Shown here: positions 2,294 through 31,352 of the stretch, piece after piece
Layout: every line of letters begins with the position of its first letter
How positions within the stretch are numbered: the stretch's first letter is position 1
Assembly (NCBI GenBank): GCA_964406675.1
Contig: CAYOSP010000001.1
Span: 16,861-80,860, forward strand
Direction of reading: 5' to 3'
DNA length: 64,000 nucleotides
Source: an uncultured Eubacteriales bacterium
Lineage (GTDB): Bacteria > Actinomycetota > Coriobacteriia > Anaerosomatales > JAUVQN01
Notes under the pieces: generated by a model
Database searches by the model: none
Seen by the model: the letters and a program-made list of their open reading frames with translations, nothing else
Told to the model about the DNA's origin: nothing
Made by a program: the position numbers and the translations under genes

Positions 2294-2743
2294 TCACGTG
2301 ATGAGGTCCCTGACCGTCCCGGCGAGCACGTAGAGCGCCCCGGCCCCGGCGAGCGCCACCACGGCCGCCGACAGCCGGCCGGTCCCCCAGTGGACCCGCC
2401 GTCCCGTCGCGCAGCCGACGAGGAAGGGTGCGAGATAGCCCACCCCCGCGCTCACGACGATCCAGGAGGCGACGACCACCGCGACCTCGACGGGGGTCAT
2501 CGCCGCGACGCCCCATCCCGCGGAGTCCAGGAGGTCGGGCACCGTGGACAGCGCACGCAGACCGTCACCGGCCGCCCAAGCGACGGCCAGCACGAGCCAC
2601 CCCCACATCCGGTTGCCCCGGTCTCCGTCCGGAGCGCCGGCGAACGCCGCGCCCATCGCCGAACCGCCCATGGCCGCGACGGGGTTGAACGACAGCCCGA
2701 GCGCGACGCCGTAGACGATCAGCGACCCCAGACCGTCGCTCAC
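2294..2743 (-). CDS. Hypothetical polytopic membrane protein
   Basis: This is the C-terminal part of track ORF 2294..2989. A GTG at 2743 overlaps the purF TGA stop (GTGA). The sequence is hydrophobic (GSLIVYGVALGLSF, WGWLVLAVAWAA, VAVVVASWIVVSAGVGYLAPFLVG). I recognise no family. Confidence 0.6.
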   Translation of the reverse strand: MSDGLGSLIVYGVALGLSFNPVAAMGGSAMGAAFAGAPDGDRGNRMWGWLVLAVAWAAGDGLRALSTVPDLLDSAGWGVAAMTPVEVAVVVASWIVVSAGVGYLAPFLVGCATGRRVHWGTGRLSAAVVALAGAGALYVLAGTVRDLIT

Positions 2744-4359
2744 GGCCCCTCCGGGAAGAGCTCGAGCGCGAGCTTGCCGCGCTTGACCGTCTCCGGGATC
2801 TCGATCGGATACTCGCCGGTGAAGCACGCCGCGCACACGGAATCGGGATCGTGCCCGACGGCCTCGAACATCTGCTTGGGGGAGATGTAGGCGAGCGAGT
2901 CGACCCCGATGAACTCGGCGACCTCCTCGACCACCTCGTTGGAGGCGATGAGCTGCTCCTGCGTGTCCGTGTCGATCCCGTAGAAGCACGGCCAGCGGAC
3001 CGGCGGGGACGTGATGCGCATGTGCACCGCGGCGGCGCCCGCCTCACGGAGCAGCGTGACGAGCTTCCGCGAGGTGTTGCCGCGCACGATCGAGTCGTCG
3101 ACCACGATGAGCCGCTTGCCTTCGATGGCACGCTTCAGCGGGTTGAGCTTCATCCGGATGCCCTGCTGGCGCATGGACTGCGTGGGAGAGATGAACGTCC
3201 TGCCCACGTAGCGGTTCTTCACGAGCCCCTCGCCGAACGGGATGCCGCTCTCGTGAGCGTATCCGATGGCGGAAGGGATGCCGCTGTCCGGTACGCCGAT
3301 CACCATGTCGGCCTCCACCGGCAGTACTCTCGCGGCCGACTCACCGAGCCGCAAACGCGCGTCGTAGACGGTGCAGTCCAGCAACTCACTGTCCGGTCTC
3401 GCCAAGTAGATGTACTCGAAGACGCACAGGCTCGGCTTCTCGGCGGGCACCGCCTGCTCGGACTCGAGACCCGCGTCGGAGAGCTTGACGAGCTCACCCG
3501 GCCCGACGTCGCGCTCGAACTCCGCGCCCACGATGTCGAGCGCGCACGTCTCGGACGCGACCACCCAACCCTCTTCGCGGCGGCCCAGGACGAGCGGCCG
3601 GATGCCGTACGGGTCGCGGAACGTGTAGAGCGCCTCCTCGGACATCATCACCGTGGAGTACGCGCCGCGGATCCGCCTCATCGTCTCTCGGATGCCTCCG
3701 CGCATGCTCGAGTGCTGCTGCGTGAAGTGATCGATGAGCGTGACCATGACCTCGGAGTCGGTCGTGGAATGGAGCCCGAACCCGTTGCCGTTCAGCTCGT
3801 CGCGCAGCTCCACGGTGTTGACCAGGTTGCCGTTGTGCGCGAGCGCGATGGTGTTCGGGCCGATCTGCGAGATGACCGGCTGTGCGTTCTCCCAGCGGCT
3901 CGAGGACCCGGTGGTGGAGTAGCGCGTGTGACCGACCGCGATGTGGCCCTCGAACGCGTCGAGGTCCGACTCCCGGAACACCTGGGCGACGAGCCCGAGA
4001 TCCTTGTTCACGGTGAGCGACTCGCCGTCGGCGACGGCGATGCCGGCGGATTCCTGGCCCCGGTGCTGGAGCGCCATCAGGCCGAAGTACGCCAGCCGCC
4101 CGACGTCCTCACCGTGCGCGAAGACCCCGAAGACGCCGCACGCCTCTTCGGGTCGGTCGGGCCGTTCCGGCCGGTCCTGCCGGTCGGGCCGTTCCGGCCG
4201 GTCCTGCCGGTCGGGCCGTTCCGGCCGACCTTCCGGCCCGGGGCCCGGCTGTTCGATATCGTTCGTAGAAGGAAGCAGAGGGGCGTCCCGTCCGATCGCC
4301 TGCGAGGGACTCGTCGCTCCCCGCCCTCGGGGCGCGTCCCGACGCAGGTAGGATAGCAT
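2740..4359 (-). CDS. purF: Amidophosphoribosyltransferase with an unusually long N-terminal extension
   Basis: Track ORF of 539 aa. The catalytic N-terminal nucleophile context CGVFGVF is present, followed by ALQHRGQESAGI and a PRTase fold motif (LIVVDDSIVRGNTS). The only in-frame start upstream of the Cys is ATG 4359. Confidence 0.93.
   Translation of the reverse strand: MLSYLRRDAPRGRGATSPSQAIGRDAPLLPSTNDIEQPGPGPEGRPERPDRQDRPERPDRQDRPERPDRPEEACGVFGVFAHGEDVGRLAYFGLMALQHRGQESAGIAVADGESLTVNKDLGLVAQVFRESDLDAFEGHIAVGHTRYSTTGSSSRWENAQPVISQIGPNTIALAHNGNLVNTVELRDELNGNGFGLHSTTDSEVMVTLIDHFTQQHSSMRGGIRETMRRIRGAYSTVMMSEEALYTFRDPYGIRPLVLGRREEGWVVASETCALDIVGAEFERDVGPGELVKLSDAGLESEQAVPAEKPSLCVFEYIYLARPDSELLDCTVYDARLRLGESAARVLPVEADMVIGVPDSGIPSAIGYAHESGIPFGEGLVKNRYVGRTFISPTQSMRQQGIRMKLNPLKRAIEGKRLIVVDDSIVRGNTSRKLVTLLREAGAAAVHMRITSPPVRWPCFYGIDTDTQEQLIASNEVVEEVAEFIGVDSLAYISPKQMFEAVGHDPDSVCAACFTGEYPIEIPETVKRGKLALELFPEGP
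4151..4235. repeat. 27-bp in-frame tandem repeat (about 3 copies) inside the purF 5-prime extension
   Basis: The unit ggtcgggccgttccggccggtcctgcc sits at 4155-4181 and 4182-4208, with a diverged third copy at 4209-4235. It encodes RPERPDRQD repeats. Confidence 0.9.
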
Positions 4360-4371
4360 GCCGCCGCCCCG

Positions 4372-5064
4372 TCAGCCCCAGACCGGTATGGTCCCTTCGC
4401 GATCGCTGCGATGGCTCTCCGCGATGCGCTCCGCGTAGGCTTCTCGCCGGCGTCCGTGCTTCAGCAGGTTCTCGTCGATCGCCCCCGCCGCATGGAACGC
4501 GCCGCCCAGCGCGGCGACGCTCAACGTGTGCCCCGTCTCGTGGGGCACGATGCGGTGGGCGCCGGGCGTGATGAAGGCGAAGTTGCCCAGGTTGTAGCCG
4601 CCCTTGAAGCCGGGACGGTACAGCCAGCCGCCCTCGAGCACCACGGTGCCCGTCGCCGCGTCCACGAAGATGCGGTGCACCCGGAACCGGTCGACCCGGT
4701 TGAGACTCACCGCCGCTCCCGCGAGCTGGACGAGGAGCGCGTACGCGCCGAGCAGCGTGATCGGCCACGACATCGGCATCAGCCAGCTCGCCCAGCCGAG
4801 CGCCTTCTGGTAACGGGGAAGGCGCGCCGTCTCGGGGAAGGCCGCGGCGAAGCCGAGTCCGCCCAGCGCGACCCCGGGCACCGCGAGCCCCATGAACGCG
4901 AGCGCGAAAGCGTTGCAGAAGGCGTTGAAGGCGATCAGCGCTCGGCGCCGGAGCGGCTCGGTCGGCCCGTGGGGGTCGCGGTCGCCGAGCACGTACACGA
5001 CCAAGGCGACGAGGGCGTTCAGCCCGAACAGCGCCGCCATCCGCCGTCCCGCCCGGCGCTTCAT
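4372..5064 (-). CDS. Membrane protein with a C-terminal HExxH (HETGH) zincin-like motif
   Basis: This is the real part of track ORF 4372..5679, starting at MKRRAGRR (ATG 5064). That ATG overlaps the upstream gene's TGA stop (ATGA). It has four hydrophobic segments followed by a soluble tail containing PHETGHTLSV. Confidence 0.65.
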   Translation of the reverse strand: MKRRAGRRMAALFGLNALVALVVYVLGDRDPHGPTEPLRRRALIAFNAFCNAFALAFMGLAVPGVALGGLGFAAAFPETARLPRYQKALGWASWLMPMSWPITLLGAYALLVQLAGAAVSLNRVDRFRVHRIFVDAATGTVVLEGGWLYRPGFKGGYNLGNFAFITPGAHRIVPHETGHTLSVAALGGAFHAAGAIDENLLKHGRRREAYAERIAESHRSDREGTIPVWG

Positions 5065-5603
5065 CGGGCGCGACCGCCGCGCCTCGGCAGCGCCCAGAGC
5101 AGCCACCCGAAGAGCGCCGCCGCCGCGACCACCAGTATCGGCGCCAGGACGGCGGCGACCGACGTCACGAGCGCGACCACGTCCTCGACCACACTCGCCA
5201 CCGGCCCGCCGACCCCCGCGGTCGAGGCGTTCACCGCGGGTCTCGTCGTCGCCTTCGCCACGTGCACGCCGCCGGCCAGGAGGATGCCGAGCGCGATCAG
5301 GAGCACCGGGCTCACGTCGGTCGCCGCGCCGGGGGACGCGACGGCGACCAGCCCTCCCGCCGCCGGGCGGATCACCGTCTGGATGACGTCGTTGACGTGG
5401 TCCACCGCCGGCAGCTTGTCGGCGACGATCTCGACGACCAACAGGACCGCGATGAGCGCCATCGCCCACCACTCGGAGATGAGGTCGTAAGGAGCCGCGA
5501 GCGTGAGGAGTCCCGCCCTGCCCGCGATGGAGACGGCGAGAAGCGGTATGTACGCGTTGAGGCCCGCGGGGAGCGCGAGGCCTATCGAGGTCAACAGTTC
5601 CAC
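5061..5603 (-). CDS. DUF4126-like integral membrane protein
   Basis: Track ORF of 180 aa starting at a GTG with a GGAG about 6 nt upstream. The motifs LPAGLNAYIPLL and VADKLPAVDHVND are typical of the DUF4126 family, from my recollection of that family. Confidence 0.7.
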   Translation of the reverse strand: MELLTSIGLALPAGLNAYIPLLAVSIAGRAGLLTLAAPYDLISEWWAMALIAVLLVVEIVADKLPAVDHVNDVIQTVIRPAAGGLVAVASPGAATDVSPVLLIALGILLAGGVHVAKATTRPAVNASTAGVGGPVASVVEDVVALVTSVAAVLAPILVVAAAALFGWLLWALPRRGGRAR

Positions 5604-5723
5604 GCGGAACTCCGGTGCCGTTGTGTGCGACTGGTGGTATCGTGCGACACTCTACTGCACGACCCGGTCCGGACGCCACGCGGGCTCCGGTGGGTGGACG
5701 CGCCCGAGGGAGGTCGAGACCGC

Positions 5724-6860
5724 ATGCCCAGACGCGTAGGGGTGCCGAGAGCGCTCCTCTACCATCGCTACGCCGCGATGTGGGAGACGTTCCTGGAGAC
5801 CCTCGGCTGCGAGGTCGTGCTCTCGCCTCCCACGAACGGAGCGCTGGTACGCTCGGCCACCGCGGTCGCGGAGGGCGAGCTGTGCCTCCCGGTGAAGGTG
5901 CACCTGGGTCACGCCGCCGCCCTCGACGGCGAGGTGGACGTGCTCTTCGTGCCCCGCGTGGTGGCCGTCGACGGCAGCCGGTTCACCTGCCCGAAGCTGC
6001 TCGGCCTGCCCGACATGACGAGAGCGCTCGGCCTCTCGACGCCGGTCTTGGACCCGACGTTCGACCTGCACGCCGGTCGATTGCGGTTCCTCCGCGACGC
6101 GTACCGCCTCGCACGCTCCCTCGACGGAGGGCGGATCCGCTCGGCGCGGGCGGTCATGGCCGCGCTGCGCGCACAGCGGCGCCACGACCGGGCCGCGCTC
6201 CGGCCGCAGCGGCGCGTCGGCGCGACGGCGTCCGGCGACGGACGTCCGCTGCGCATCGGGGTGGCCTCGCATCCGTACAACCTCTTCGACGAGCACGTGA
6301 GCCTGCGGCTCCTCGAACGGCTCACCGACCGGGGCTGCGAGGTGCTCACCCCCGAACAGATAGCGCCCCGCGCGCTGGACGGCGCGGCTGCGGGCCTGCC
6401 GAAGGACGTCTTCTGGACCTACGAGCGGGAGATCGTGGGCGCGGTGCGGCACTGGCTGGAGCACGACATGGTCGACGGCATCGTGTACCTGCTCTCGTTC
6501 GCGTGCGGACCGGACTCGTTCATGCAGGTGGTCATCCAGGACGAGGTGCACGCGGCCGAGGTCCCGATGATGTCGCTGGTACTCGACGAGCACTCCGCGG
6601 AGGCCGGGTTCCTGACACGCCTGGAAGCGTTCATGGACATGCTCGAGCGCCGCGCCGCTCGCGATCGCGTCGAGGAACGGTCCGTCACGCACTCATCCCG
6701 CGCCGCCGGACCCGACGCCGACGGACCCCACGCCTGCGGACCCCACGCCGCCGAGAACGGTGCCGCCGAGACCGCGCGACCGCCCTCCGCGCGGCGGGTC
6801 CCCCCGGAGACCGCCGCTCGCCCCGCGGACGACGAGGCCCGGGATCGGGTGCCCTCGTGA
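5724..6860 (+). CDS. DUF2229 / acyl-CoA dehydratase activase-related protein (subunit 1)
   Basis: ATG 5724 has a GGGAGG upstream. The N-terminus GVPRALLYHRYAAMWETFLETLGCEVVLSPPTN..GELCLPVKVHLGH matches the conserved start of the COG3580/3581-type domain. The C-terminus is low-complexity. Confidence 0.8.
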   Translation: MPRRVGVPRALLYHRYAAMWETFLETLGCEVVLSPPTNGALVRSATAVAEGELCLPVKVHLGHAAALDGEVDVLFVPRVVAVDGSRFTCPKLLGLPDMTRALGLSTPVLDPTFDLHAGRLRFLRDAYRLARSLDGGRIRSARAVMAALRAQRRHDRAALRPQRRVGATASGDGRPLRIGVASHPYNLFDEHVSLRLLERLTDRGCEVLTPEQIAPRALDGAAAGLPKDVFWTYEREIVGAVRHWLEHDMVDGIVYLLSFACGPDSFMQVVIQDEVHAAEVPMMSLVLDEHSAEAGFLTRLEAFMDMLERRAARDRVEERSVTHSSRAAGPDADGPHACGPHAAENGAAETARPPSARRVPPETAARPADDEARDRVPS

Positions 6861-7981
6861 TCGTCACCACGCCGCGCATGGGCAACCTCACCCCGTTCGT
6901 CGCCGAGCTGTTCGAGCGGCTGGGCGTCGAGTACCTGCCGCCGCCGCAGACCAGCGAGCGCACCCTCGCACTCGGCGTGCGCCACGCGCCGGAGATGGCC
7001 TGCCTGCCGCTGAAGCTCACGATCGGCAACCTCATCGAGGGGCTCGAGGCGGGAGCCGACACGACGGTGATGGTCGGCGGGCGCGGTCCGTGCCGCTTCG
7101 GCTACTACGCCGACCTCCAGCGCCGCATCCTCCACTCGCTCGGCTACGAGCACCGCGCGCTCGTGCTCGAACCGCTCAACCTCGTGGGGTGGCGGGAGTT
7201 CGGTCGCCAGCTCAAGGCGATCGCCCCCGGCAGCTCCTACCGCGAGATCGCCTCGGCGTTCAAGACGACGTTCGCCAAGGGGCAGGTCTCGGACCGCATC
7301 GAGAAGCGAGGGCTGGAGACGCGCTGCTACGAGCGCGAGCGGGGCGAGACGAGCCGGGTGACGAACCGAGCCTTCGAGATCCTCCGCGAGGCTTGGACGC
7401 GCGAGGAGATCGAGGAGGCGGAGCGCGAGGCGGCGGCGCTGTTCGACGCGATGGACCTCGACCGGGACCGCGACGTGCTCGAGGTGGCGTTCCTCGGCGA
7501 GTTCTACCTGCTGCTCGAGCCGTTCACCAACTTCGACCTCGAGCCGTGGCTCGGCGAGCGCGGCGTGTGCCTCGAGCGCGGTGTCTACGTGACCGACTGG
7601 ATCTCGCCGAGCACCGACAACCCCGTCGGGGGCCACAGCGACGAGGAGGTCGCCGAGCACGCGCACCCGTACCTCACGCATCACGTGGGGGCGGAGGGCC
7701 AGAGCGTCATCGGTCACATGCGCATGGCGGCCGAGGCGGGCTTCGACGGGATCATCCACATGCTCCCGTTCACCTGCATGCCCGAGATCATCGCGAAATC
7801 GATCATGCCCACGGTCTCGCGCGATCTCGACCTGCCCTACCTCTCGCTGGTGATCGACGAACAGACGGGCAAGGCCGGGGTGCACACGCGCCTCGAGGCC
7901 TTCCTCGACCTGCTGAGGAGCCGGCGGGCGGGCAGCGACGGGAACGGTTCGGAGAGGAGCACCGCATGCGCGGTTACCTAG
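6857..7981 (+). CDS. DUF2229 / acyl-CoA dehydratase activase-related protein (subunit 2)
   Basis: GTG 6857 overlaps the upstream TGA (GTGA). Family-typical motifs are PRMGNLTPFVAELFERLGVEYLPPP, EMACLPLKLTIGN, GGRGPCRFGYY and LPFTCMPEII. Confidence 0.8.
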   Translation: MIVTTPRMGNLTPFVAELFERLGVEYLPPPQTSERTLALGVRHAPEMACLPLKLTIGNLIEGLEAGADTTVMVGGRGPCRFGYYADLQRRILHSLGYEHRALVLEPLNLVGWREFGRQLKAIAPGSSYREIASAFKTTFAKGQVSDRIEKRGLETRCYERERGETSRVTNRAFEILREAWTREEIEEAEREAAALFDAMDLDRDRDVLEVAFLGEFYLLLEPFTNFDLEPWLGERGVCLERGVYVTDWISPSTDNPVGGHSDEEVAEHAHPYLTHHVGAEGQSVIGHMRMAAEAGFDGIIHMLPFTCMPEIIAKSIMPTVSRDLDLPYLSLVIDEQTGKAGVHTRLEAFLDLLRSRRAGSDGNGSERSTACAVT

Positions 7982-9082
7982 GCGTGGACGTCGGCTCCGT
8001 GAGCACCAACCTCGTGTTCCTCGACGAGGATCTCGAGCCGCGGGCGGTCGTCTATCGCCGCACCCAGGGCAGGCCGATCGACGCGGTGCAGCGCGGGCTC
8101 GAGGAGCTCGCGGCACAGCTCACGCACGCGAGCGACAACGGCGGGCCCGACGTGGAGGTGCTCGGGGTCGGCACCACCGGCAGCGCGCGGTACCTGACCG
8201 GCGTCATCGTCGGCGCCGACATCGTGAAGAACGAGATCACCGCGCACGCGGTGGGCGCGATGCACGTGGTGCCGGACGTGCGCACCGTCCTCGAGATCGG
8301 CGGACAGGACTCCAAGCTCATCCTGCTGCGCGACGGCGTGGTGGTGGACTTCGCGATGAACACCGTCTGCGCCGCCGGTACCGGCTCGTTCCTCGACCAC
8401 CAGGCCGGGCGGCTCGGCATACCCATCGAGGAGTTCGGCTCCTGGGCGCTGCGCTCCGAGAAGGGCGCGCAGATCGCCGGTCGCTGCAGCGTGTTCGCCG
8501 AGTCCGACATGATCCACAAGCAGCAGGTGGGCTACGCGACCGAGGACATCGTGTTCGGCCTGTGCGAGTCGCTCGTGCGCAACTACCTGAACAACCTCGC
8601 GAAGGGTAAGGACCTGCACGCGCCGATCGTCTTCCAGGGCGGCGTGGCGGCGAACGCGGGCATGAAGCGTGCGTTCGAGGAGACGCTCGGCTGCGAGGTG
8701 CACGTCCCCGCGCACCACCACGTGATGGGCGCGATCGGCGCCGCGATCCTCGGGCGGGAGGCCGCGCTCGCGAGCGGCGACGGGCACCGGAGCGAACCCG
8801 GGCAGAGGAGCGAGTCACGGCCCCGGAGCGGCGACGGGAACGGGGTCGCTCGCGTCGACGAGGGTCGGCGCACGCGGTTCAAGGGGTTCGAGACGTCACG
8901 GGTCGAGTACCGGACGACCAGCTTCCACTGCAAGGGGTGCGAGAACATCTGCGAGGTGGTGGAGTGCCGCAGCGACGACGAGGTGCTCGCCCGCTGGGGC
9001 GGTCGATGCGGCAAGTGGGAGGTCGAGGAGCCGGCGGCCGCTCGGGACGCGGACGCCGTCGCCGACGCGGCGACGGGCGAGA

Positions 9083-9108
<26 letters not shown>
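7966..9108 (+). CDS. BadF/BadG/BcrA/BcrD (HgdC-type) ATPase, a putative reductive activase, with a Cys-rich tail
   Basis: ATG 7966 lies after GGAGAGGAG. ASKHA motifs are present ([45 protein letters not shown]). The tail carries [15 protein letters not shown]...GGRCGKWE. Confidence 0.85.
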
Positions 9109-12047
<2,939 letters not shown>

Positions 12048-13782: not shown

Positions 13783-15357
13783 TCAGCCGGGGAAGGACAT
13801 CGCCTCGATGAAGCGCTGCCGGAAGCGCTCGTGAGCGGCCAGGTCCAGCGCTTTCACCCTCCCCGCGACCCGCTCGACGTCCTCCATCCCCGAGGGCTCC
13901 ACCGCGATGATCTCGGCTCCCGCCTTGGCCGCGTTACCCACGAACTCGATCCGTTCACGCCATTCGGGCGGGAACATGCCCATGCGCACGAGCGCGCTGG
14001 GCCGCAGGTGGAGACCGAATCCGCCGGCGACGATCACCTCGGCGACGTCGGAGGCCGACACGCCCCCCTCGTCGAGCAGTACGTCGATGCCCGCCCTGAT
14101 CGCGCCTTTGGCGAGCTGCACCTCTCGGACGTCCTTCTGCGTGAGATAGATGCCTCGGCCCTCGTCCAGCCACACCCGGCGGCCCTCGGGGGTCTCGGCT
14201 ATCCGGTGCGCGAGCCGGTCGCCGGTGTCGACGATCCGACCTCCGACGTCGAGGACGCCGCGCTCGAGCAGCGCCGCGACGAGATCGATCACGCCGCTCC
14301 CGCAGATGCCCGTGGGCGGGGCGCCCGCGATGGTGTGCAGGCGCAGGACGCCGCCCTCGATGTCCACCCGCTCCACCGCGCCGGCGGTCGCTCGCATCCC
14401 CTTCTCGATCGTGGCGCCCTCCAGCGCGGGCCCCGCCGCCGTGGAGGCGGCGATCATCCGACCGGACGGGAGCTTGAGCACGATCTCGCCGTTCGTCCCC
14501 ACGTCGACGTAGAGCACGGCGCCGTCATGGTCCTCGAGCCCCACCGCCAGCAGGCCGGCGGTGACGTCCGGTCCCACGAACACGGACACGGCGGGCGGCA
14601 CGCGGACCCGGGTCCTGCCGAACAACTCCAGGCCGATCCGATCGGCCGGCTCGGACCGCGCACCGGTGAACGCGGGCTCGTAGGGCGACGAGGTGAGTCC
14701 CGACGTGGGCTCGCCGAGGAACATGTGCATCATCACGGTGTTCCCGACCGCCACCACGTCCGACACGTCGGCCGGGTCCGCGCCGTGTCTCGCCAGGATC
14801 TCCTCGCTGAGCGAGCCGACGTGGCGCACCAGCACGTCGTGGAGCGCTCCCTCCTCGCCGCGGGCGGCGAGTCGGGACATGACGTCGTCACCGTAGCGGA
14901 CCTGCGGGTTGAGCGCTCCGGCGTGCCCGAGCTCGCGAGCGCTCGCCCGATCGACCAAGCCGACGGCGAGGGTGGTCGTGCCCACGTCGACGACCACGGC
15001 GAGTCCGGAGGCTCTGGGAGCCGTGGCGCGCGGACGCGGGCCTAGGGAGTGCGCCACGAGCTGCGGGTCCTCGACCTGCGGCCGCCCGAGCACCTCAGTC
15101 ACACGCACGTCCCCGCTGAATCGAGCACGACAGGCGAGCCGGACGCCCTCGGCGATCTCCGCCGGGGAGAGCAGCGCACGCTCCACGGGAGTGGGATCGA
15201 GCAACTCGCCGGACACGCGCACCCGGCACCTGCCGCAGGTGCCGCGGCCGCCGCATGGAGCTTCCATCGGGAACCCCGCGCGCGCGGCGACCTGCAGGAC
15301 GGAGACGCCGGCCTCTGCGTCGACCGTCGTCCCGTCGGGGAAGGTCACCGCGGGCAC
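13783..15357 (-). CDS. RACo-like protein: N-terminal plant-type 2Fe-2S ferredoxin fused to a DUF4445/ASKHA ATPase
   Basis: Track ORF of 524 aa with CGGRGTCGRCRV...LACRA, then VDVGTTTLAV, GNTVMMHMFLG, DVGTNGEIVL, PTGICGSGVID and AGGFG. Confidence 0.8.
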   Translation of the reverse strand: MPAVTFPDGTTVDAEAGVSVLQVAARAGFPMEAPCGGRGTCGRCRVRVSGELLDPTPVERALLSPAEIAEGVRLACRARFSGDVRVTEVLGRPQVEDPQLVAHSLGPRPRATAPRASGLAVVVDVGTTTLAVGLVDRASARELGHAGALNPQVRYGDDVMSRLAARGEEGALHDVLVRHVGSLSEEILARHGADPADVSDVVAVGNTVMMHMFLGEPTSGLTSSPYEPAFTGARSEPADRIGLELFGRTRVRVPPAVSVFVGPDVTAGLLAVGLEDHDGAVLYVDVGTNGEIVLKLPSGRMIAASTAAGPALEGATIEKGMRATAGAVERVDIEGGVLRLHTIAGAPPTGICGSGVIDLVAALLERGVLDVGGRIVDTGDRLAHRIAETPEGRRVWLDEGRGIYLTQKDVREVQLAKGAIRAGIDVLLDEGGVSASDVAEVIVAGGFGLHLRPSALVRMGMFPPEWRERIEFVGNAAKAGAEIIAVEPSGMEDVERVAGRVKALDLAAHERFRQRFIEAMSFPG

Positions 15358-21166: not shown

Positions 21167-21206
21167 GGGCGCCTCAGCCCTCCGCCGGGCGCCTCAGCCC
21201 TCCGCG
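21167..21206. repeat. 20-nt tandem duplication spanning the purE stop codon
   Basis: The unit gggcgcctcagccctccgcc occurs at 21167-21186 and 21187-21206 with one mismatch. Both copies contain tca, the minus-strand TGA. Confidence 0.9.
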
Positions 21207-21655
21207 AGCGACCTCTTCAACGCGCGGACGGCTTCACGATGTTCCGGATGGGCTCCCCCGACGATCTGCGCGGCGAGGATCGCCGCGTTCCGGGCGCCGC
21301 CGATGGCCACGCACGCGACCGGCACGCCCTTGGGCATCTGCACCATCGAGAGCAGCGAGTCGAGCCCTCCGAGGTCCGACGTCTTCATCGGCACGCCGAC
21401 CACCGGCAGCGGCGTGAACGCCGCGACCACTCCGCCGAGGTGGGCCGCCTTGCCGGCGGCCGCGACGATCACCTCGATGCCGCGCCCCTCCGCGCCCGAC
21501 GCCCACTCGTGCACTCTCGCGGGCTGGCGGTGTGCCGAGGCGACCGTCATCTCGTAGGGTACGCCGAGCTCGTCGAGCGCGTCCGCGCAATCCTGCATGA
21601 CCGGTCGGTCGGATTCGCTCCCCATCACTATGCCTACCAGCGGCTTCTCGGCCAT
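21194..21655 (-). CDS. purE: N5-carboxyaminoimidazole ribonucleotide mutase (class I PurE)
   Basis: Trimmed to [16 protein letters not shown] (ATG 21655, GGAGGG upstream). The SAHR motif and [20 protein letters not shown] are present. Confidence 0.9.
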
Positions 21656-21680
21656 GGTATCCCTCCATCGATCGCTTCCG

Positions 21681-22964
21681 TCATCCCTCACCGAACAGCA
21701 GCACGCGCTCGGCCTCGGGGAGACGCTCCCTGGCCTGGTCACGGAAGTTGTTCACGCCGGCGAAGAACTCCCGCATCATCGCCACGAGCAGATAGCGGCC
21801 CTTCGCCGTGAGCGTGAGGCGCTTCTCGTCGTCGACGTCGAACGCGCCCACCGCCTTGAAGAACGCGTACTCGCGCCACAGCCCCCGGCGCACGCTCACC
21901 CCGAAGTCGCGCTCGAAGCGCTCCTTGTCGAGCTCCAAGCCGAACAGTTCCATCATGAACCGGTACGCCATCCGTTCCCAGTGCCCGAATCCGCGCACCG
22001 CCGCGGTCGGCATCTCGCCGGCGTCCACCGACTCGTCGTACCGCCTCACCGAGAACGTGTTCACGTACAGCGCTCCGCCGAGGTAGCTGAACGACCCGCT
22101 CCCCGCGCCCACGTACTGCTCGTAGTCCACGATGTACTCGTCGATCATCCCGCCGCCCTTGCGCGAGAACGTCCACGCGCTCGCGGGTTCGAACCTCTCG
22201 GAGAGCCGCTCGTAGAGGATCCCGTAGTAGCGGTGCTCCCGTTTGTAGTCCACCGCCCCGATCGTCTCGGCGAGCCGGCGGCGCACCGCCTTCGACGTCA
22301 TGAGCGGGTAGAAGGTGACCTGGTTGCACCCCGATTCCTTCACGCGCTCGAGGTCGTCGCGCAGGATCGCCTCGGTCTGGCTCGGGAAGTTGAAGATCAT
22401 GTCGACGTTGAGCGAGTGGAACCTATCCGCCGTCTCCTGCAGGCGCTCCAGGATCTCAGCGCCGCTGCCGTACTTGTCGTAGCGTTCCATCTGCCTGAGC
22501 AGCCCGTCGTCGAAGCTCTGCACGCCCACGCTGAAGCGCTGCACGCGCTCGGTGAGCGGCTCGACGACGCGCTCGACGAGATGGTTGGGGTTGGTCTCGC
22601 AGGAGACCTCGCGAATGGCGAAGAGTCCCCGGGCGAGGTCGATGGTCGCGGTGAGCTCGTCGACCAGGATGGTGGGCGTGCCGCCGCCTACGTAGAGCGA
22701 AGCGAAGTCGTAGCCCATCGCCTCGATCATCCGCAACTCCTCGCGCAGGCGGCGGAAGTAGCCGCGCGCGGCGTCCTCCTCGAAGGGAAAGCGGTTGAAG
22801 GAGCAGTACGGGCAGAGCCGCTCGCAGAACGGCACGTGCGCGTAGAGCATGTAGGAGACGCCCGGCTCCGGGCCCGGGATCGTCGCGTCGGGATGCGGAT
22901 CCAGGTTGAGGACCTTCTCGTTCTCCCGCCGCAGGACCGTCGTCAGCAGGCGCTCGGCGAGCAC
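21681..22964 (-). CDS. Radical SAM protein of the HemN/HemW (oxygen-independent coproporphyrinogen oxidase-like) family
   Basis: Motifs are [16 protein letters not shown] (CxxxCxxC), LYVGGGTPT and [12 protein letters not shown] 22964 lies 1 nt after the purD stop. Confidence 0.85.
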
Positions 22965-22965
22965 G

Positions 22966-24285
22966 CTACCGCCCCGTACCGCTCGCGGAGCCGCGGGCCG
23001 CGACCCCGGACTCGTCCCCGGACTCGTCCAACGCCTTCGCGCCGATGTCGCGGCGGTAGTGGGCACCCTCGAAGTCGATGCGCCCCACCGCCTCGTACGC
23101 GCGCTCGCGCGCCTCGGCGAGCGTGGGCGCCACGGCGGTCACGTTGAGCACGCGCCCTCCCGCGGTGAGCAGCCGATCGTCCTCGCGCCTCGTCCCAGCG
23201 TGATAGACGGTGACCCCTTCCGGCACGGCGGCCTCCTCGACGCCGATGATCGCCTTGCCCTTCTCGTAGGAGCCCGGATAGCCGCCCGAGGCCATCACCA
23301 CGGAGAGCGCCGCGTCCCCGCTCCACGCGAGGTCGACCTCGTGCAGACGGCCCTCGGCGGTCGCGAGGAGCACGTCGAGCAGGTCGGTCTCGAGCAGCGG
23401 CAGCACCACCTGGGTCTCCGGGTCACCGAAGCGGGCGTTGAACTCGAGCACCTTCGGTCCCTCGTCGGTGAGGATGAAGCCGCCGTAGAGCACGCCGCTG
23501 TACGGAACCCCCATGTCGGCGAGCCCGGACACGACGCGTTCGATGGTCTCGCGCATCATGTCCACCGCGGCCCCGTCGGCCGCGGGCACCGGCGAGTACA
23601 CGCCCATGCCGCCCGTGTTCGGGCCGGTGTCTCCCTCGAAGACCGGCTTGTGGTCCTGTGCGGGCACCATGTGACGCACCGTGCTCCCGTCGGTGAAGGA
23701 GAGCAGCGAGCACTCCTGGCCGACCAGCTTCTCCTCGAGCACCACCCGGCTGCCCGCCTCGCCGAAGCGACCGCCGAAGCACTCCTCGATCGCCGTCGCA
23801 GCCTCCTCGGCCGTCTCCGCCACGGTCACGCCCTTACCGGCGGCCAGACCGTCGGCTTTCACCACGATCGGCGCGCCGACCTCGGCGAGATACGTATGCG
23901 CCTCGGTGGCGGTCTCGAAGGTGCGGGCCCTCGCGGTGGGGATACCGAGGCGCTCCATGACCTCTTTCGCGAAGCTCTTCGAGCCCTCGATCCGCGCACC
24001 GGCGGCGTCGGGACCGAACACCCTCATGCCGGTCGCGCGGAGCCGGTCCGCGGCGCCCGCGACGAGAGGCGCCTCAGGACCGATGACGACGAGGTCGGGC
24101 GCGATCGCCTTCGCCTCGGCCTCGACCGCCGCCGGGTCCTCGATGTCGAACGAGAGATGCTCGGCGAGCTCCGCCGTCCCGCCGTTACCGGGCGCGACGA
24201 ACAGGTCGGGGTGGTGTCCGGACCGCGAGAGCGCCAGCGCGATCGCGTGTTCGCGGCCTCCGCCACCGAGTAACAGGACACGCAC
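22966..24285 (-). CDS. purD: Phosphoribosylamine-glycine ligase
   Basis: Track ORF of 439 aa with MRVLLLGGGGREHA, PGNGGTA, the ATP-grasp motif KADGLAAGKGV and LEFNARFGDPE. The C-terminal DESGDESG comes from a 12-nt duplication at 23003-23026. Confidence 0.93.
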   Translation of the reverse strand: MRVLLLGGGGREHAIALALSRSGHHPDLFVAPGNGGTAELAEHLSFDIEDPAAVEAEAKAIAPDLVVIGPEAPLVAGAADRLRATGMRVFGPDAAGARIEGSKSFAKEVMERLGIPTARARTFETATEAHTYLAEVGAPIVVKADGLAAGKGVTVAETAEEAATAIEECFGGRFGEAGSRVVLEEKLVGQECSLLSFTDGSTVRHMVPAQDHKPVFEGDTGPNTGGMGVYSPVPAADGAAVDMMRETIERVVSGLADMGVPYSGVLYGGFILTDEGPKVLEFNARFGDPETQVVLPLLETDLLDVLLATAEGRLHEVDLAWSGDAALSVVMASGGYPGSYEKGKAIIGVEEAAVPEGVTVYHAGTRREDDRLLTAGGRVLNVTAVAPTLAEARERAYEAVGRIDFEGAHYRRDIGAKALDESGDESGVAARGSASGTGR

Positions 24286-28562: not shown

Positions 28563-29165
28563 ATGAAGACCCGACTCGGTCCGCAGAACCGGCTCTTCCC
28601 CGCCCCCGTCCCGCTCGTGCTGAGCGGGACGGGCGACGAGGCGAGCATGCTCGCCGTCGCCTGGGCGACCATCGTCGGCAGCAAGCCGCCCTCCCTCGCG
28701 ATGGCGCTCGGGCGTCGCCATCACACGGTCGACCTCATCGAGCGCACCGGCGAGTTCACCGTCAACGTCCCCCCGGTCTCCCTCGCCGAGGAGGTCGACT
28801 ACTGCGGGCTCGTGTCCGGCCGCGACGTCGACAAGACGGCACGCTGTGGCTTCACCCTGCTGCCGTCCGCCGTGGTCGGCCCGCCGATCATCGAGGAGTG
28901 CCCCTACAACCTGGAGTGCCGCGTCTCGGAGACGTTCGACATGCCCACGGGCACCCTGCTCGTGGTCGGCGAGGTCCTGGAGGCGCACGCGGACGCCGAG
29001 CTCGTCCGGGAGAACGGGCGCGACGTCGACATCGCCCGCCTCGACCCCCTCGTCTACATCACCGGCAACCGCGAGTACTTCCGGCTCGGCGAGCGCGTGG
29101 CCGACGCCTACCGCATCGGGCGCCGGCTCGACGAGGAGTCGGAAGCCGAGCACGAGGACGGGTGA
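28563..29165 (+). CDS. Flavin reductase-like (FMN-binding split-barrel) protein
   Basis: ATG 28563 follows GAGGAGG. The sequence (PVPLVLSGT, MLAVAWATIVGSKPP, TGEFTVNVP) is consistent with the family. Confidence 0.8.
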   Translation: MKTRLGPQNRLFPAPVPLVLSGTGDEASMLAVAWATIVGSKPPSLAMALGRRHHTVDLIERTGEFTVNVPPVSLAEEVDYCGLVSGRDVDKTARCGFTLLPSAVVGPPIIEECPYNLECRVSETFDMPTGTLLVVGEVLEAHADAELVRENGRDVDIARLDPLVYITGNREYFRLGERVADAYRIGRRLDEESEAEHEDG

Positions 29166-30232
29166 CGGTCCGGGGTCCGGCGCCGGAGCGGGATCAGGTA
29201 CCCGACCCCGCGCGCGAGGTGCAGCGACACGAGCACGAGCGGGGCGAGCACGCCGACGCACGCGTCGCGACGCGTGAATGCCCCTCGGACGCCGACCGAG
29301 ACCGCCGCGGCGAGGTAGGCGGCGACCGGGGCGAGCGCCCACCTGCGCAGACGACGTGACGCGAGTGACGCGACCGCCAGCACCGGCAGGGCGACGGTCC
29401 ACGCCGCGACCGCGAGGTGGGCGCCGCGATGCGTCCCCAACCGGCGGCTCGCGGACCCCATCGCCACGTTCCGGCGCATGAACGCGCGGTACGTGGTGTC
29501 ACGCAGGTGCCCCACCCGCGCGTCCGGGGCGTGGACCACCCGGTACCCGGCCGCTTCCACCCTCCGACCCAGATCGACGTCCTCGTGCACCTCGAGCGAC
29601 TCGTCGAAGACGTGCGGGACCCCCACGGAGGCGGCTCTCGGGATCGCCGCGGAGGCGGCCACCTCGGCCGGGATCATCATGTTCCACAGCTTCGGATAGT
29701 AGCGCCCGGCACGGACCCCGGTCCTCCCTCCCCGCACGCTCCCGGCGCCGAGCGGCGAGTGCAGCACGACGTCCAGCGCCACGTCGAACGACGAACGGGA
29801 TTCGAGTTCGTCGGAGCCTCCGAGCAGACCGAGCCCGGGCTCCGACGCGATCGCCTCGTCCATACGGGTCAGCCAGTCTCGCCGGAACAGCGCGTCGTCG
29901 TCCGCGAAGGCGAGGTACCGGCCGCGCGCCTGATCGCAGGCCCGGTTGAGCGCGACGGAGCGGTTCGGCCCGACGGTGCGGCCCGGCCCTTCGACCGCAG
30001 CCTCCCTCGGGCACCCCACCCAGCGGATCGGGAACGGGGCGACCTCCGCCGCGCGCCGCACGATCGCGCGAGCCTCCTCGTCGTCCGTCGCTCCGGCGAC
30101 CAGCGCTTCGACACGGTCGGCGGGGTAGTCGAGGGCACACAGCGTGCGCAGCGAATCCGCGAGCATGCAGCCGCCGTGGACCACCGGCAGGATGACGCTA
30201 TAGCGCGGCGCGCCAGGGGCCTCAGCGGTCAC
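29108..30232 (-). CDS. Family 2 glycosyltransferase with a C-terminal membrane segment
   Basis: Motifs are YSVILPVVHGG and the DxD-type FADDDALF. The hydrophobic tail is AVAAWTVALPVLAVASL. The GTG start overlaps the upstream radical SAM gene by 11 nt. Confidence 0.8.
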   Translation of the reverse strand: MTAEAPGAPRYSVILPVVHGGCMLADSLRTLCALDYPADRVEALVAGATDDEEARAIVRRAAEVAPFPIRWVGCPREAAVEGPGRTVGPNRSVALNRACDQARGRYLAFADDDALFRRDWLTRMDEAIASEPGLGLLGGSDELESRSSFDVALDVVLHSPLGAGSVRGGRTGVRAGRYYPKLWNMMIPAEVAASAAIPRAASVGVPHVFDESLEVHEDVDLGRRVEAAGYRVVHAPDARVGHLRDTTYRAFMRRNVAMGSASRRLGTHRGAHLAVAAWTVALPVLAVASLASRRLRRWALAPVAAYLAAAVSVGVRGAFTRRDACVGVLAPLVLVSLHLARGVGYLIPLRRRTPDRHPSSCSASDSSSSRRPMR

Positions 30233-31352
30233 GGAACCACTCCGTCTCGATCACGGTGTCCTCGGCGCGCATCCCGCGATACGTGCAGCGGCTGCAGTGG
30301 TGGTATTCGTTGCGACCCTCGTGGAAGCCGTCGCGGAACGCTCGGGCCACGGGACCGCGCCAGATCCGCAGCCACCCGCCGTCCTCCGGATACGACCCGA
30401 ACGCGAGCGACGCGTCGTGGTCGTACTCGCACGAGATCACGGTCCCGCGCGCGTCCACGGTGATCCGCCGCGAGGGCCGATCGCATCCGAACCGCGCCGC
30501 ATCCGGCCCATCCCCGGACCGCCGGTAGCGCGACGCCTCCGGCTCGTAACGGTCACCGAGCTCGAAGGGCTCGTCGACCGTCTTGACGCTGAAGACGTCG
30601 ACGCCCGCGTCGCGAGCCCATCGGCGAGCGGCCTCGAGTTCGTGTTCGTTGTGGTGCATGATCACGAACCGCATGTTCAGCCTCGGTGTCGGACTCCCGA
30701 GACGTTCGCGGGCGGCGACGAGTCCCAGGACGTTGGCACGCGCGGTCTCGAGGTCCCCGCCCACGCGGTACCGCTCGTAGGTCTCCTGGGTGGCGCCGTC
30801 GACGGCGAACACGATGCTGTCCAGCCCGCTGCGCACCATCCGTTCCGCCCCGTCGGGCCCCAGCGGCACGTTGCCGTTCGTGCTCACATGCACCGCGATC
30901 CCCGCCCGCTTCGCGTACCCGACCATCTCCCAGAGGTCCGGGTGCAGCAGCGGCTCTCCCCACATCCACAGCACCATGAGCAGCACGCTGTCGGCGAGCT
31001 CGTCGACCAGGCTGCGGAACACCGCGGGGTCCATGTACGTGCCGTACGCGCGAGACCCTTGCTCGCGCCTCACGCGGGTGAGGCACTGTGGGCACGACAG
31101 GTTGCAGTGATCGACGGGCTCGACCTGCGCGATGAGCGGCCCCGCGGTCGGGTGGGAGCGGCCGAGCGTCCGGTCCAGACCGGCTGCGATGAGGTTCCTG
31201 CGCCTCGCCCGTCCCACGGGCCGCACCTCGAACGGCAACCCTTCGAATCGGAAGCGGAAGCGGTCTCTGAGCACGAGGTCCGCGACCTTCCACGCATCCG
31301 CCGCCGCCGAGCGCTTCTTGGTCGTCACCCACCACTCCCGCATCGGGTACAT
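30222..31352 (-). CDS. Radical SAM protein with a SPASM/twitch-like Cys-rich C-terminus
   Basis: Motifs are VDHCNLSCPQC (CxxxCxxC) and WGEPLLHPD, with C-terminal Cys residues (FGCD..ISCEYD..HHCSRCTY). An alternative start at ATG 31343 has better spacing from AAGGAG. Confidence 0.8.
   Translation of the reverse strand: MYPMREWWVTTKKRSAAADAWKVADLVLRDRFRFRFEGLPFEVRPVGRARRRNLIAAGLDRTLGRSHPTAGPLIAQVEPVDHCNLSCPQCLTRVRREQGSRAYGTYMDPAVFRSLVDELADSVLLMVLWMWGEPLLHPDLWEMVGYAKRAGIAVHVSTNGNVPLGPDGAERMVRSGLDSIVFAVDGATQETYERYRVGGDLETARANVLGLVAARERLGSPTPRLNMRFVIMHHNEHELEAARRWARDAGVDVFSVKTVDEPFELGDRYEPEASRYRRSGDGPDAARFGCDRPSRRITVDARGTVISCEYDHDASLAFGSYPEDGGWLRIWRGPVARAFRDGFHEGRNEYHHCSRCTYRGMRAEDTVIETEWFRDR

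What the first reader, a model, noticed from the sequence alone, without database searches (positions are those of the whole stretch)
5724..9108. Split three-gene version of the orphan activase/DUF2229 enzyme, convergent with and overlapping purL
Three translationally coupled genes encode two DUF2229-type proteins and a BcrA/BadF/HgdC-type ASKHA ATPase with a Cys-rich tail. The couplings are a GTGA overlap at 6857-6860 and a 16-nt overlap at 7966-7981. In many genomes these modules occur as one very large fused protein annotated as CoA-substrate-specific enzyme activase, whose substrate is unknown. HgdC/BcrAD-type ATPases normally inject low-potential electrons into a partner dehydratase or reductase (HgdAB, BcrBC), and no such partner is present here. 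The cluster sits inside a purine biosynthesis neighbourhood, and its 3-prime end overlaps the purL 3-prime end by 26 nt (9083-9108). The split architecture could help work out which module does what.
Basis: partly seen in the sequence, partly recalled or inferred. Interest (0 to 1): 0.55.

Follow-up and report, generated by a model that had tools for sequence, protein, structure and literature searches.

The report
Split three-subunit PlsA/Ger-type lipid ether reductase
Three overlapping genes encode a complete, split version of the oxygen-sensitive, ATP-driven iron-sulfur enzyme that anaerobic bacteria use to turn membrane-lipid ester bonds into ether bonds; its position among purine genes is incidental.

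Summary
Three translationally coupled + strand genes (A 5724-6860, B 6857-7981, C 7966-9108) encode two DUF2229/HGD-D proteins and a BcrAD/HgdC-type ATPase with a Cys-rich tail. The overlaps, including 26 nt with purL, are exactly as described.

The interpretation needs three corrections.
- The fused ~1400-aa relatives are no longer orphans. They are PlsA(/PlsR) plasmalogen synthase and Ger glycerol ester reductase.
- A partner is present. A and B are paralogues with the fold of the HgdAB/HadBC/BzdNO/DCCP catalytic subunits, and each has three invariant Cys.
- The pur linkage is incidental, seen in only 3 of 84 related loci.

Module by module, A matches Red1 of PlsA, B matches PlsR/Red2, and C matches the activation domain plus the CxxCxxxC...C element that follows it. 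These matches hold against C. perfringens PlsA-PlsR, recovered here from published primers.

The A-B-C operon occurs in at least 575 species genomes of anaerobic Actinomycetota, Chloroflexota and Bacillota. In relatives it sits in gpsA-(A-B)x2-plsB-plsB operons, directly before plsX, or directly after spoVA.

It is most likely a three-subunit lipid ester-to-ether reductase. The substrate is inferred, not shown. Moderate interest: an uncharacterised architectural variant of a known enzyme family.

The parts
5706..5713 (+). Shine-Dalgarno-like GAGGGAGG, 10 nt upstream of the ATG of gene A
   Evidence: Read directly from the sequence.
5724..6860 (+). Gene A, 378 aa: Red1-type catalytic subunit (DUF2229 + HGD-D C-terminus). 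Invariant Cys54, Cys89 and Cys261 are presumed [4Fe-4S] ligands. The C-terminal ~55 residues are low-complexity and not conserved.
   Evidence: Pfam. Family alignment invariants. AF2 pLDDT 86.7, disordered after residue 337. Foldseek top 13 hits are all HAD/BCR/DCCP catalytic subunits. The A-HMM hits Red1 of 120/120 fused proteins and C. perfringens PlsA 664-956 at 121 bits.
6857..7981 (+). Gene B, 374 aa: Red2/PlsR-type catalytic subunit and a paralogue of A. Invariant Cys49, Cys79 and Cys307.
   Evidence: Pfam. Invariants. hhalign A family vs B family: probability 99.8%, E 2.6e-30. AF2 pLDDT 86.2. Foldseek top 15 hits are all HAD/DCCP/BCR subunits, best 3o3n_B at 1.5e-8. The B-HMM hits Red2 in 120/120 fused proteins and C. 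perfringens PlsR at 55 bits, E 3e-17. Cys307 aligns with a Cys of HadC.
7966..8769 (+). Gene C, ATPase core (residues 1-268): HgdC/BcrAD-type ASKHA electron-transfer ATPase. Cys135 and Cys174 lie at the positions expected to bridge a [4Fe-4S] cluster in a homodimer.
   Evidence: Pfam and TIGR00241. PDB sequence matches: MbdQ 1e-40, HgdC 1.7e-33, HadI 3.5e-33. Cys135 and Cys174 are conserved in 69 of 70 family members. 53% identity to Act2 of fused proteins.
8929..9009 (+). Gene C, Cys-rich element (Cys322-x2-Cys325-x3-Cys329 ... Cys348). It is shared with the linker that follows the second activation domain in PlsA and the fused proteins.
   Evidence: The four Cys are conserved in 68 of 70 sequences, including C. 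perfringens PlsA and five fused proteins. The C alignment to fused proteins runs through residue 354.
7966..9108 (+). Gene C, whole ORF of 380 aa. It includes a low-complexity insert (residues ~269-300) and a non-conserved C-terminal extension whose last 26 nt overlap the 3' end of purL.
9083..11437 (-). purL (FGAM synthase II), the convergent neighbour. It is not part of the system.
   Evidence: Pfam AIRS, AIRS_C and FGAR-AT_linker. Stop codon position.

Best explanation
The three genes encode a complete, stand-alone member of the BCR/HAD radical-enzyme superfamily. It belongs to the PlsA/PlsR/Ger branch, built from three separate polypeptides instead of one or two fused ones.

Proposed mechanism:
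1. C forms a homodimer, as HgdC does, that holds a [4Fe-4S] cluster between the two Cys135/Cys174 pairs. This replaces the covalently fused Act1-Act2 pair of PlsA.
2. A low-potential donor (ferredoxin or flavodoxin) reduces that cluster.
3. ATP binding and hydrolysis drive the electron onward, possibly via the four-Cys tail of C. It reaches the [4Fe-4S] clusters of the A/B heterodimer (three Cys each), which corresponds to Red1/Red2 of PlsA-PlsR and to HgdA/HgdB.
4. By analogy with PlsA-PlsR and Ger, A/B reduces the sn-1 acyl ester carbonyl of a membrane glycerophospholipid through a ketyl-type intermediate.
5. Dehydration gives a vinyl ether (plasmalogen); further reduction gives a saturated alkyl ether.

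Status of the claims:
- Shown here: the gene structure, the homology of each module, the conserved ligands, and the conserved A-B-C operon.
- Inferred: the metal clusters, the homodimer, the electron path and the lipid substrate.
- Not predictable from sequence: whether the product is a vinyl or an alkyl ether.
- The pur location has no functional meaning.
For: Module identity:
- Pfam and NCBIfam assignments.
- A and B are full-length paralogues.
- Their models match only HAD/BCR/DCCP catalytic subunits.

Cys conservation:
- Three invariant Cys in A and three in B.
- Bridging-cluster Cys135/Cys174 in 69/70 and the four tail Cys in 68/70 family members.

Link to characterised enzymes:
- C. perfringens plsA-plsR was located with the published cloning primers of PMC12838417, and both primer ends match.
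- A hits only Red1 of PlsA (HMM 121 bits, E 4e-37). B hits only PlsR (55 bits, E 3e-17). C hits Act2 (E 4e-45) and Act1.
- Against 120 fused ~1400-aa proteins, the A-HMM prefers Red1 and the B-HMM prefers Red2 in 120/120.
- The window proteins are as close to these fused proteins as validated PlsA/PlsR are: 30.7 vs 28.3%, 25.3 vs 23.2%, 53 vs 37.8% identity.
- The Cys tail is shared with PlsA and the fused proteins. The solved activators it matches are only 243-276 aa long, too short to carry it.

Operon conservation:
- B is adjacent to A in 84/84 loci, and C is in the locus in 64/84.

Lipid context in relatives:
- gpsA-(A-B)x2-GPAT-GPAT in three Actinomycetota loci.
- plsX starts 3-64 nt after C in eight Chloroflexota loci.
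- A GT4 glycosyltransferase and an LPG_synthase_TM protein lie upstream in a Gaiellales locus.

Phenotype:
- Fervidicola ferrireducens and Moorella thermoacetica carry the split operon (L067, L059). They make plasmalogen-derived dimethyl acetals (supplement of PMC13274423).
Against: - No experiment exists on any split member.
- Identity to validated PlsA Red1 and PlsR is only 21-25%.
- No lipid gene lies next to the operon in this window.
- PMC13274423 reports that Bacillota genomes hold a PlsA/Ger homologue with activation domains and also 'additional' homologues without them, of unclear role. If the split set coexists with a fused enzyme, it may do something different.
- In about 22 Bacillota loci the operon follows spoVA, a context with no obvious link to bulk lipid synthesis.
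- The DMA phenotype of Moorella and Fervidicola could come from another PlsA homologue in those genomes. I could not scan whole genomes.
- The metal content of the Cys tail (Fe-S or Zn) is unknown.
Confidence: 0.6

Rival explanations
1. Same enzyme class (an ATP-driven Fe-S reductase/dehydratase complete with its catalytic subunits), but a paralogous branch with a different substrate. Candidates are a soluble acyl-CoA or small molecule, or a different position or class of lipid (sn-2 ester, forespore membrane lipid, neutral lipid).
For: - Low identity to validated PlsA/PlsR.
- The split family forms its own tight sequence group. The best 120 hits of A and the great majority of the best 150 representatives are 300-380 aa stand-alone proteins.
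- The literature notes extra, activation-domain-less homologues alongside PlsA/Ger in the same Bacillota genomes, with unclear role.
- spoVA linkage in Bacillota.
- Other branches of the superfamily use very different substrates: aryl-CoA, 2-hydroxyacyl-CoA, and small molecules for DCCP (hits).
Against: - One-to-one module correspondence with PlsA/PlsR/Ger, including the family-specific Cys tail.
- All validated members of this branch, from Firmicutes, Actinobacteria, Thermotogae and Desulfobacterota, act on glycerolipid esters (PMC13159169, PMC12838417).
- Operon-level linkage to gpsA, plsB-like GPAT and plsX in two other phyla.
- No acyl-CoA metabolism genes recur next to it.
Confidence: 0.3
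2. The cluster has a role in, or is regulated together with, purine biosynthesis, for example by antisense interference with purL through the 26-nt convergent overlap.
For: It is embedded between purF and purL here and in one Coriobacteriia-like relative, L002. There is a true 26-nt 3' overlap with purL. No terminator-like site lies between the genes.
Against: - pur genes are within 10 kb in only 3 of 84 related loci. One of the three is a weak end-of-contig hit and one lies 6.5 kb away in a Bacillota genome.
- In L002 three unrelated genes separate C from purL.
- The overlapping tail of C is a non-conserved extension.
- No known step of purine synthesis needs such an enzyme (established pathway knowledge).
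Confidence: 0.03
3. One reading: an orphan activase whose reductase or dehydratase partner is missing, with the DUF2229 proteins as accessory modules of unknown role.
For: Pfam names DUF2229 as uncharacterised. The HGD-D match covers only the last ~65 residues.
Against: Full-length fold matches of both A and B to HadC, DCCP, BzdNO and MbdON. Three invariant Cys in each. The corresponding modules form the reductase part of PlsA-PlsR/Ger.
Confidence: 0.02

Closest known systems
PlsA-PlsR plasmalogen synthase of Clostridium perfringens (CPE1194/1195; Jackson et al. 2021) and single-gene PlsA of Enterococcus, Lactococcus and Bifidobacterium (PMC12838417)
   Same: Same set of modules: HgdC-type ATPase, the CxxCxxxC...C element, a Red1 DUF2229/HGD-D module and a Red2 DUF2229/HGD-D module. 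A matches Red1, B matches PlsR, and C matches Act2/Act1 plus the tail. Both come from anaerobes, and an oxygen-sensitive Fe-S enzyme is expected.
   Different: Three polypeptides instead of two or one. One ATPase domain per polypeptide (a presumed homodimer) instead of a fused Act1-Act2 pair. Gene order Red1-Red2-Act is a circular permutation of the fused order Act-Act-Red1-Red2. Only 21-32% identity. No activity data.
Ger, glycerol ester reductase of Thermotoga maritima (Tmari_0479) and Desulfatibacillum alkenivorans (PMC13159169)
   Same: Same Pfam domain complement (Ger architecture BBDHDDH). The ~1400-aa fused proteins from Desulfobacterota, Planctomycetota and Nitrospinota MAGs are the nearest fused relatives of the window proteins (about 700 bits for the concatenate; ATPase core 53% identical).
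   Different: Split architecture with a single activation domain. I could not obtain the validated Ger sequences, so the relationship rests on unvalidated fused relatives. Ger and PlsA cannot be told apart by sequence (PMC13274423).
2-Hydroxyacyl-CoA dehydratases with their activators (HgdAB + HgdC; HadBC + HadI)
   Same: The same three-gene logic: one homodimeric ATPase gene plus two paralogous catalytic-subunit genes. Fold matches to 3o3m/3o3n. ATPase matches to 1hux and 4eht. The C-terminal Cys motif aligns.
   Different: Sequence similarity is limited to the last ~65 residues of A and B. NCBIfam HadC scores 15.5 bits against a 700-bit cut-off. The ATPase carries an extra four-Cys tail. No CoA-ester pathway genes lie nearby.
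Double-cubane cluster protein DCCP with DCCP-R (6ENO, 7YYL), and class I benzoyl-CoA reductases (BzdNOPQ, MbdONPQ)
   Same: Top structural neighbours of A and B. MbdQ is the best PDB sequence match of C. Both are ATP-driven low-potential reductions.
   Different: NCBIfam double_cubane scores 16.9 bits against a 350-bit cut-off. A and B have only three invariant Cys each. This system is a heterodimer of paralogues, not a homodimer.

Membership tests
BCR/HAD radical-enzyme superfamily (ATP-dependent Fe-S reductases/dehydratases) | HgdC/BcrAD-type ASKHA ATPase with two conserved Cys positioned to bridge a [4Fe-4S] cluster in a dimer | tested here: met
   PF01869 E 5.4e-47 and TIGR00241 188.5 bits against a 125.4-bit cut-off. 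Sequence matches to MbdQ, HgdC and HadI. Cys135 and Cys174 are in 69/70 family members. That these Cys are cluster ligands is inferred from HgdC.
BCR/HAD radical-enzyme superfamily (ATP-dependent Fe-S reductases/dehydratases) | Two paralogous catalytic subunits with the HgdA/HgdB fold, each with a Cys-ligated Fe-S site | tested here: met
   hhalign A vs B E 2.6e-30. Foldseek hits with E <= 1e-4 are exclusively HadBC, DCCP, BzdNO and MbdON. Three invariant Cys in each.
BCR/HAD radical-enzyme superfamily (ATP-dependent Fe-S reductases/dehydratases) | ATP-coupled electron transfer from the ATPase to the catalytic subunits | not testable with these tools
   Needs biochemistry.
PlsA/PlsR/Ger lipid ester reductases | Domain complement of activation (PF01869) + DUF2229/HGD-D (Red1) + DUF2229/HGD-D (Red2) | tested here: met
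   The complement is spread over three genes.
PlsA/PlsR/Ger lipid ester reductases | Each module is specifically related to the corresponding module of an experimentally validated enzyme | tested here: met
   Against C. perfringens PlsA-PlsR recovered via published primers: A-HMM to Red1 121 bits and no significant hit on PlsR; B-HMM to PlsR 55 bits and none on PlsA; C to Act2 E 4e-45.
PlsA/PlsR/Ger lipid ester reductases | Four-Cys element (CxxCxxxC...C) directly after the (second) activation domain | tested here: met
   Conserved in 68/70 sequences, including C. perfringens PlsA, five fused proteins and the split C family. Using it as a family marker is my inference.
PlsA/PlsR/Ger lipid ester reductases | Two tandem activation domains in one polypeptide (BB), reported as conserved in all validated ether producers | tested here: not met
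   C has one PF01869 domain. No second ATPase gene is in the window. A homodimer could supply the second copy, as in HgdC, but this is inferred. The authors of the 2022 preprint considered single-B homologues of uncertain functionality.
PlsA/PlsR/Ger lipid ester reductases | Converts the sn-1 ester of glycerolipids into a vinyl or alkyl ether under anoxic conditions | not testable with these tools
   Only indirect support: lipid-gene context in relatives and DMAs in two cultured carriers.
2-Hydroxyacyl-CoA dehydratase (HgdAB/HadBC) proper | Full-length match to HGD-D / equivalog models | tested here: not met
   PF06050 matches only profile positions 276-342 of 342. NCBIfam HadC scores 15.5 bits against a 700-bit cut-off.
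Double-cubane cluster protein (DCCP) | Equivalog-level match to the NCBIfam double_cubane model | tested here: not met
   NF040772 scores 16.9 bits against a 350-bit cut-off. Only three invariant Cys per subunit.

The most novel reading that the evidence does not exclude
The split A-B-C system is not just PlsA in pieces. It would be a distinct, widespread paralogous enzyme that coexists with fused PlsA/Ger in many anaerobes and makes a different product. Candidates are the sn-2 ether bond needed for diether and tetraether (brGDGT-type) lipids, or a forespore-specific membrane lipid in spore formers, where it is co-transcribed with spoVA. It would also explain the 'B-only' and 'activation-domain-less' homologues that lipid researchers have flagged as of unclear role.
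Probability: 0.25. Interest if true: 0.75.

Novelty: new variant of a known kind. Interest (0 to 1): 0.42.

Why it matters
- Bacterial ether lipids (plasmalogens, alkyl glycerol ethers, brGDGT precursors) matter for the 'lipid divide', for palaeoclimate proxies and for gut-microbe physiology.
- Only fused PlsA/Ger enzymes have been tested. Lipid researchers reported single-activation-domain ('B') homologues and activation-domain-less homologues as separate proteins of doubtful or unclear function.
- Here these are subunits of one conserved three-gene operon, present in at least 575 species genomes. That changes which organisms should be counted as potential ether-lipid producers: many Actinomycetota, Dehalococcoidia and spore-forming Bacillota.
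- Separate subunits would also allow the ATPase, Red1 and Red2 to be purified and mutated one at a time, which the 1400-aa fusion does not.
- For this particular window the result is mostly a correction. The enzyme is not an orphan, it has its partner, and the purine context is coincidental.

Tried and rejected
1. pur linkage. I searched 84 related loci with purF, purL, purQ, purS, purC, purB and RACo from the window. There were 3 loci with any pur hit, so I rejected it as functional.
2. The divergent upstream genes (DUF4126 and the HExxH-like membrane protein) as conserved partners. They gave no hit in any related locus.
3. A second copy or a fused homologue elsewhere in the window. None was found.
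4. Promoter and terminator scan of 5400-9400. Nothing rose above the shuffled expectation.
5. Rfam and tRNA scans. There is no riboswitch or RNA element near the cluster, only tRNA-Gly at 48959-49034.
6. Jackson et al. 2021. It is not held, by DOI or by PMC id, so the 'PlsA motifs' it defines could not be checked.
7. Table S7 of PMC13274423 and table S21 of PMC13159169 (domain architectures per strain). They are not retrievable. I therefore could not decide whether Moorella and Fervidicola also carry a fused PlsA.
8. Naming the organism. The cluster look-up returned no names or accessions.
9. Sequence-only PDB search with the A and B profiles. It reaches only the last ~65 residues, so fold comparison was needed.
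10. Literature search for COG3580, COG3581, 'CoA protein activase' and 'acyl-CoA dehydratase activase-related'. Nothing relevant turned up.


Full report
**1. Observation**

The window has about 71% G+C. Three + strand ORFs have the third-position G+C expected of real genes: 0.90, 0.95 and 0.93.
- A, 5724-6860, 378 aa: preceded by GAGGGAGG. It is DUF2229 over the full Pfam model (E 2.6e-39), with the C-terminal 65 residues matching HGD-D.
- B, 6857-7981, 374 aa, GTG start: it passes the DUF2229 threshold only for its N-terminus (36 bits against 29.4) and matches HGD-D weakly.
- C, 7966-9108, 380 aa: a BcrAD_BadFG/TIGR00241 ATPase.

The GTGA overlap, the 16-nt overlap and the 26-nt convergent overlap with the purL stop are all present. 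An independent gene call on another assembly of the same DNA gives the same three genes.

**2. Surroundings**

- Upstream, on the - strand, lie an S8 protease (runs off the window start), purF (2740-4359), a membrane protein without a Pfam match (4372-~5000) and a DUF4126 protein (5061-5603).
- Downstream, also on the - strand, lie purL, purQ, purS, purC, a RACo-like ASKHA/2Fe-2S protein, purB, and later purE, a radical SAM gene, purD and purA.
- The three genes are therefore a + strand insertion in a - strand purine region.

**3. The DUF2229 proteins are the missing 'partner'**

- Family alignments show three invariant Cys in A (54, 89, 261) and three in B (49, 79, 307).
- The two families are full-length paralogues (hhalign probability 99.8%, E 2.6e-30).
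- AlphaFold models are confident (pLDDT 86.7 and 86.2).
- In the PDB, every match with E <= 1e-4 is a catalytic subunit of the BCR/HAD superfamily: HadC, DCCP, BzdNO or MbdON.
- The last invariant Cys of B aligns with a Cys of HadC.
- In C, Cys135 and Cys174 are conserved in 69/70 relatives. C matches MbdQ, HgdC, HadI and DCCP-R by sequence.
- The locus thus encodes a full Hgd-like set: one ATPase and two paralogous Fe-S subunits.

**4. Relationship to characterised enzymes**

The literature held here shows that the large fused proteins are not orphans.
- PlsA-PlsR of C. perfringens and single-gene PlsA of Enterococcus, Lactococcus and Bifidobacterium make plasmalogens (PMC9702350, PMC12838417).
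- The 'modified PlsA' Ger of T. maritima and D. alkenivorans makes 1-O-alkyl glycerol ethers. Its architecture is BBDHDDH (PMC13159169).

To obtain a validated sequence I took the cloning primers from Table S6 of PMC12838417. I located plsA-plsR on a metagenome contig, L011: PlsA 6694-9621 (975 aa) and PlsR 9630-10892 (420 aa). Both primer ends match.

| Window protein | Matches in C. perfringens | Identity / score |
|---|---|---|
| A | PlsA residues 665-954 (Red1) only | 21%, E 3e-12; family HMM 121 bits, E 4e-37 |
| B | PlsR only | 25%, E 3e-12; family HMM 55 bits, E 3e-17 |
| C | Act2 and Act1 of PlsA | 32%, E 4e-45 (Act2); 29% (Act1) |

- A concatenated C+A+B query retrieves ~1400-aa fused proteins at about 700 bits.
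- In 120/120 of these the A-HMM prefers Red1 (median 201 against 26 bits) and the B-HMM prefers Red2 (82 against 22 bits).
- The window modules are as similar to these fused proteins as the validated Clostridium modules are.
- The Cys-rich tail of C (C322-x2-C325-x3-C329 ... C348) is conserved in 68/70 sequences. These include the linker after Act2 in C. perfringens PlsA and in fused proteins. The solved activators that C matches are only 243-276 aa long, too short to carry it.
- Gene order here (Red1-Red2-Act) is a circular permutation of the fused domain order (Act-Act-Red1-Red2).

**5. Distribution and context**

Most are MAGs of Actinomycetota, Dehalococcoidia/Chloroflexota and Bacillota.
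- Cultured carriers include Moorella thermoacetica, Fervidicola ferrireducens, Pelotomaculum propionicicum, Desulfofundulus thermosubterraneus, Caloranaerobacter azorensis, Caldicoprobacter algeriensis and Desulfotomaculum copahuensis.
- An exhaustive HMMER search gives 4353 50%-identity representatives at E <= 1e-3 and 1243 at E <= 1e-30. The best 150 are mostly 300-380 aa, with about a dozen A-B fusions of 670-770 aa.
- In 84 loci, B is next to A in all and C is in the locus in 64.
- pur genes are nearby in 3 loci only: L002 clearly, L019 weakly, L080 at a distance. The purine context is therefore incidental.

Recurrent neighbours are:
- in about 22-24 Bacillota loci, the spoVA genes directly upstream on the same strand (median gap 25 nt after spoVAF);
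- in eight Chloroflexota loci, plsX starting 3-64 nt after C;
- in three Actinomycetota loci, an apparent operon gpsA-A-B-A-B-GPAT-GPAT, confirmed by Pfam and by the A/B HMMs;
- in a Gaiellales locus, a GT4 glycosyltransferase and an LPG_synthase_TM protein directly upstream.

The gpsA, plsB-like and plsX contexts tie the split proteins to glycerolipid synthesis in two phyla, independently of homology.

**6. What the field has said about such proteins**

- The 2022 preprint noted Ger homologues with a single activation domain ('B', 'BDDD'). It called it unclear whether one activation domain gives a functional protein.
- The 2026 AEM paper states that Bacillota genomes contain additional PlsA homologues lacking the activation domain, of unclear role. 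It adds that homologues with one B domain correlate with plasmalogen production, and that Ger and PlsA cannot be told apart by sequence.
- Its supplement lists plasmalogen-derived DMAs in F. ferrireducens and M. thermoacetica. Both carry the split operon (L067, L059).
- I found no paper that treats the three genes as one unit.
- The operon view explains those observations. The 'B-only' protein and the 'activation-less' proteins are subunits of one complex, and a homodimer of C would supply the two ATPase domains, as in HgdC.

**7. Mechanism and confidence**

- The most likely reading (0.6) is a three-subunit, ATP-driven Fe-S reductase that converts a glycerolipid ester into a vinyl or alkyl ether.
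- The main rival (0.3) is the same machinery acting on another substrate. It is supported by the low identity to PlsA/PlsR, the possible coexistence with fused enzymes and the spoVA linkage.
- A purine-related role (0.03) and a partner-less activase (0.02) are effectively excluded.
- Cluster types, the homodimer, the electron path and the substrate are inferred. The vinyl or alkyl outcome cannot be predicted.

**8. Verdict**

It is an uncharacterised architectural variant (split, single ATPase, permuted order) of a known enzyme family, and it is common in anaerobes. Interest is moderate. It offers a tractable route to dissect PlsA/Ger chemistry, and it clarifies which homologues count as potential ether-lipid synthases. 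This particular locus is an ordinary member of that split family.

Noticed in passing
window 13783-15357 (-): A RACo-like protein (Fer2 + Raco_middle + RACo_C_ter ASKHA domain) sits between purC and purB. RACo is an ATP-dependent reductive activator of corrinoid proteins. It is a second ATP-driven redox activase in the same purine region, with no corrinoid protein seen nearby.
   Followed up: partly
window 21681-23066 (-): A radical SAM gene (461 aa) is inserted between purE (21194-21742) and purD (22966-24285). Its function is unknown.
   Followed up: no
window 29108-34587 (-): A run of four genes on one strand: a GT2 glycosyltransferase, two radical SAM proteins (one with a SPASM domain) and a spermine-synthase-like methyltransferase-fold protein. 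It may be a modification or biosynthetic cluster.
   Followed up: no
L007, L055, L059, L062, L091, L094, L096, L097 and about 14 more Bacillota loci, just upstream of position 10001: In spore-forming Bacillota the A-B-C operon lies directly downstream of spoVAF on the same strand (median gap 25 nt). spoVAF itself follows dacF-spoIIAA-spoIIAB-sigF-spoVAC/D/E. This suggests forespore-specific expression.
   Followed up: partly
L092 6703-14605 (also L040, L057): An apparent operon gpsA - A - B - A - B - GPAT - GPAT: two A/B pairs between a glycerol-3-phosphate dehydrogenase gene and two PlsB-like acyltransferase genes. There is no ATPase gene in the locus.
   Followed up: yes
L032, L035, L036, L043, L045, L046, L053, L075: In Dehalococcoidia/Chloroflexota MAGs, plsX starts 3-64 nt after the ATPase gene C.
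   Followed up: yes
L024, L025, L028, L029; representatives P0362, P0364, P0365 and others: A-B fusion proteins of 670-770 aa exist, in loci with no ATPase gene within 10 kb. The family therefore spans fully split, partly fused and fully fused architectures.
   Followed up: partly
window 1-~1900 (-): A subtilisin-like S8 protease with C-terminal cell-wall-binding-type repeats runs off the window start. A homologous S8 protease also flanks purF in the Coriobacteriia-like relative L002, so this chromosomal region is syntenic between the two.
   Followed up: no
window 8770-8865 and 6680-6857: Low-complexity, charged or Pro/Ala/Arg-rich stretches are absent from relatives and have low model confidence. 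One is an insert in C (residues ~269-300); the other is the C-terminal tail of A (residues ~320-378). They are typical high-GC expansions.
   Followed up: partly
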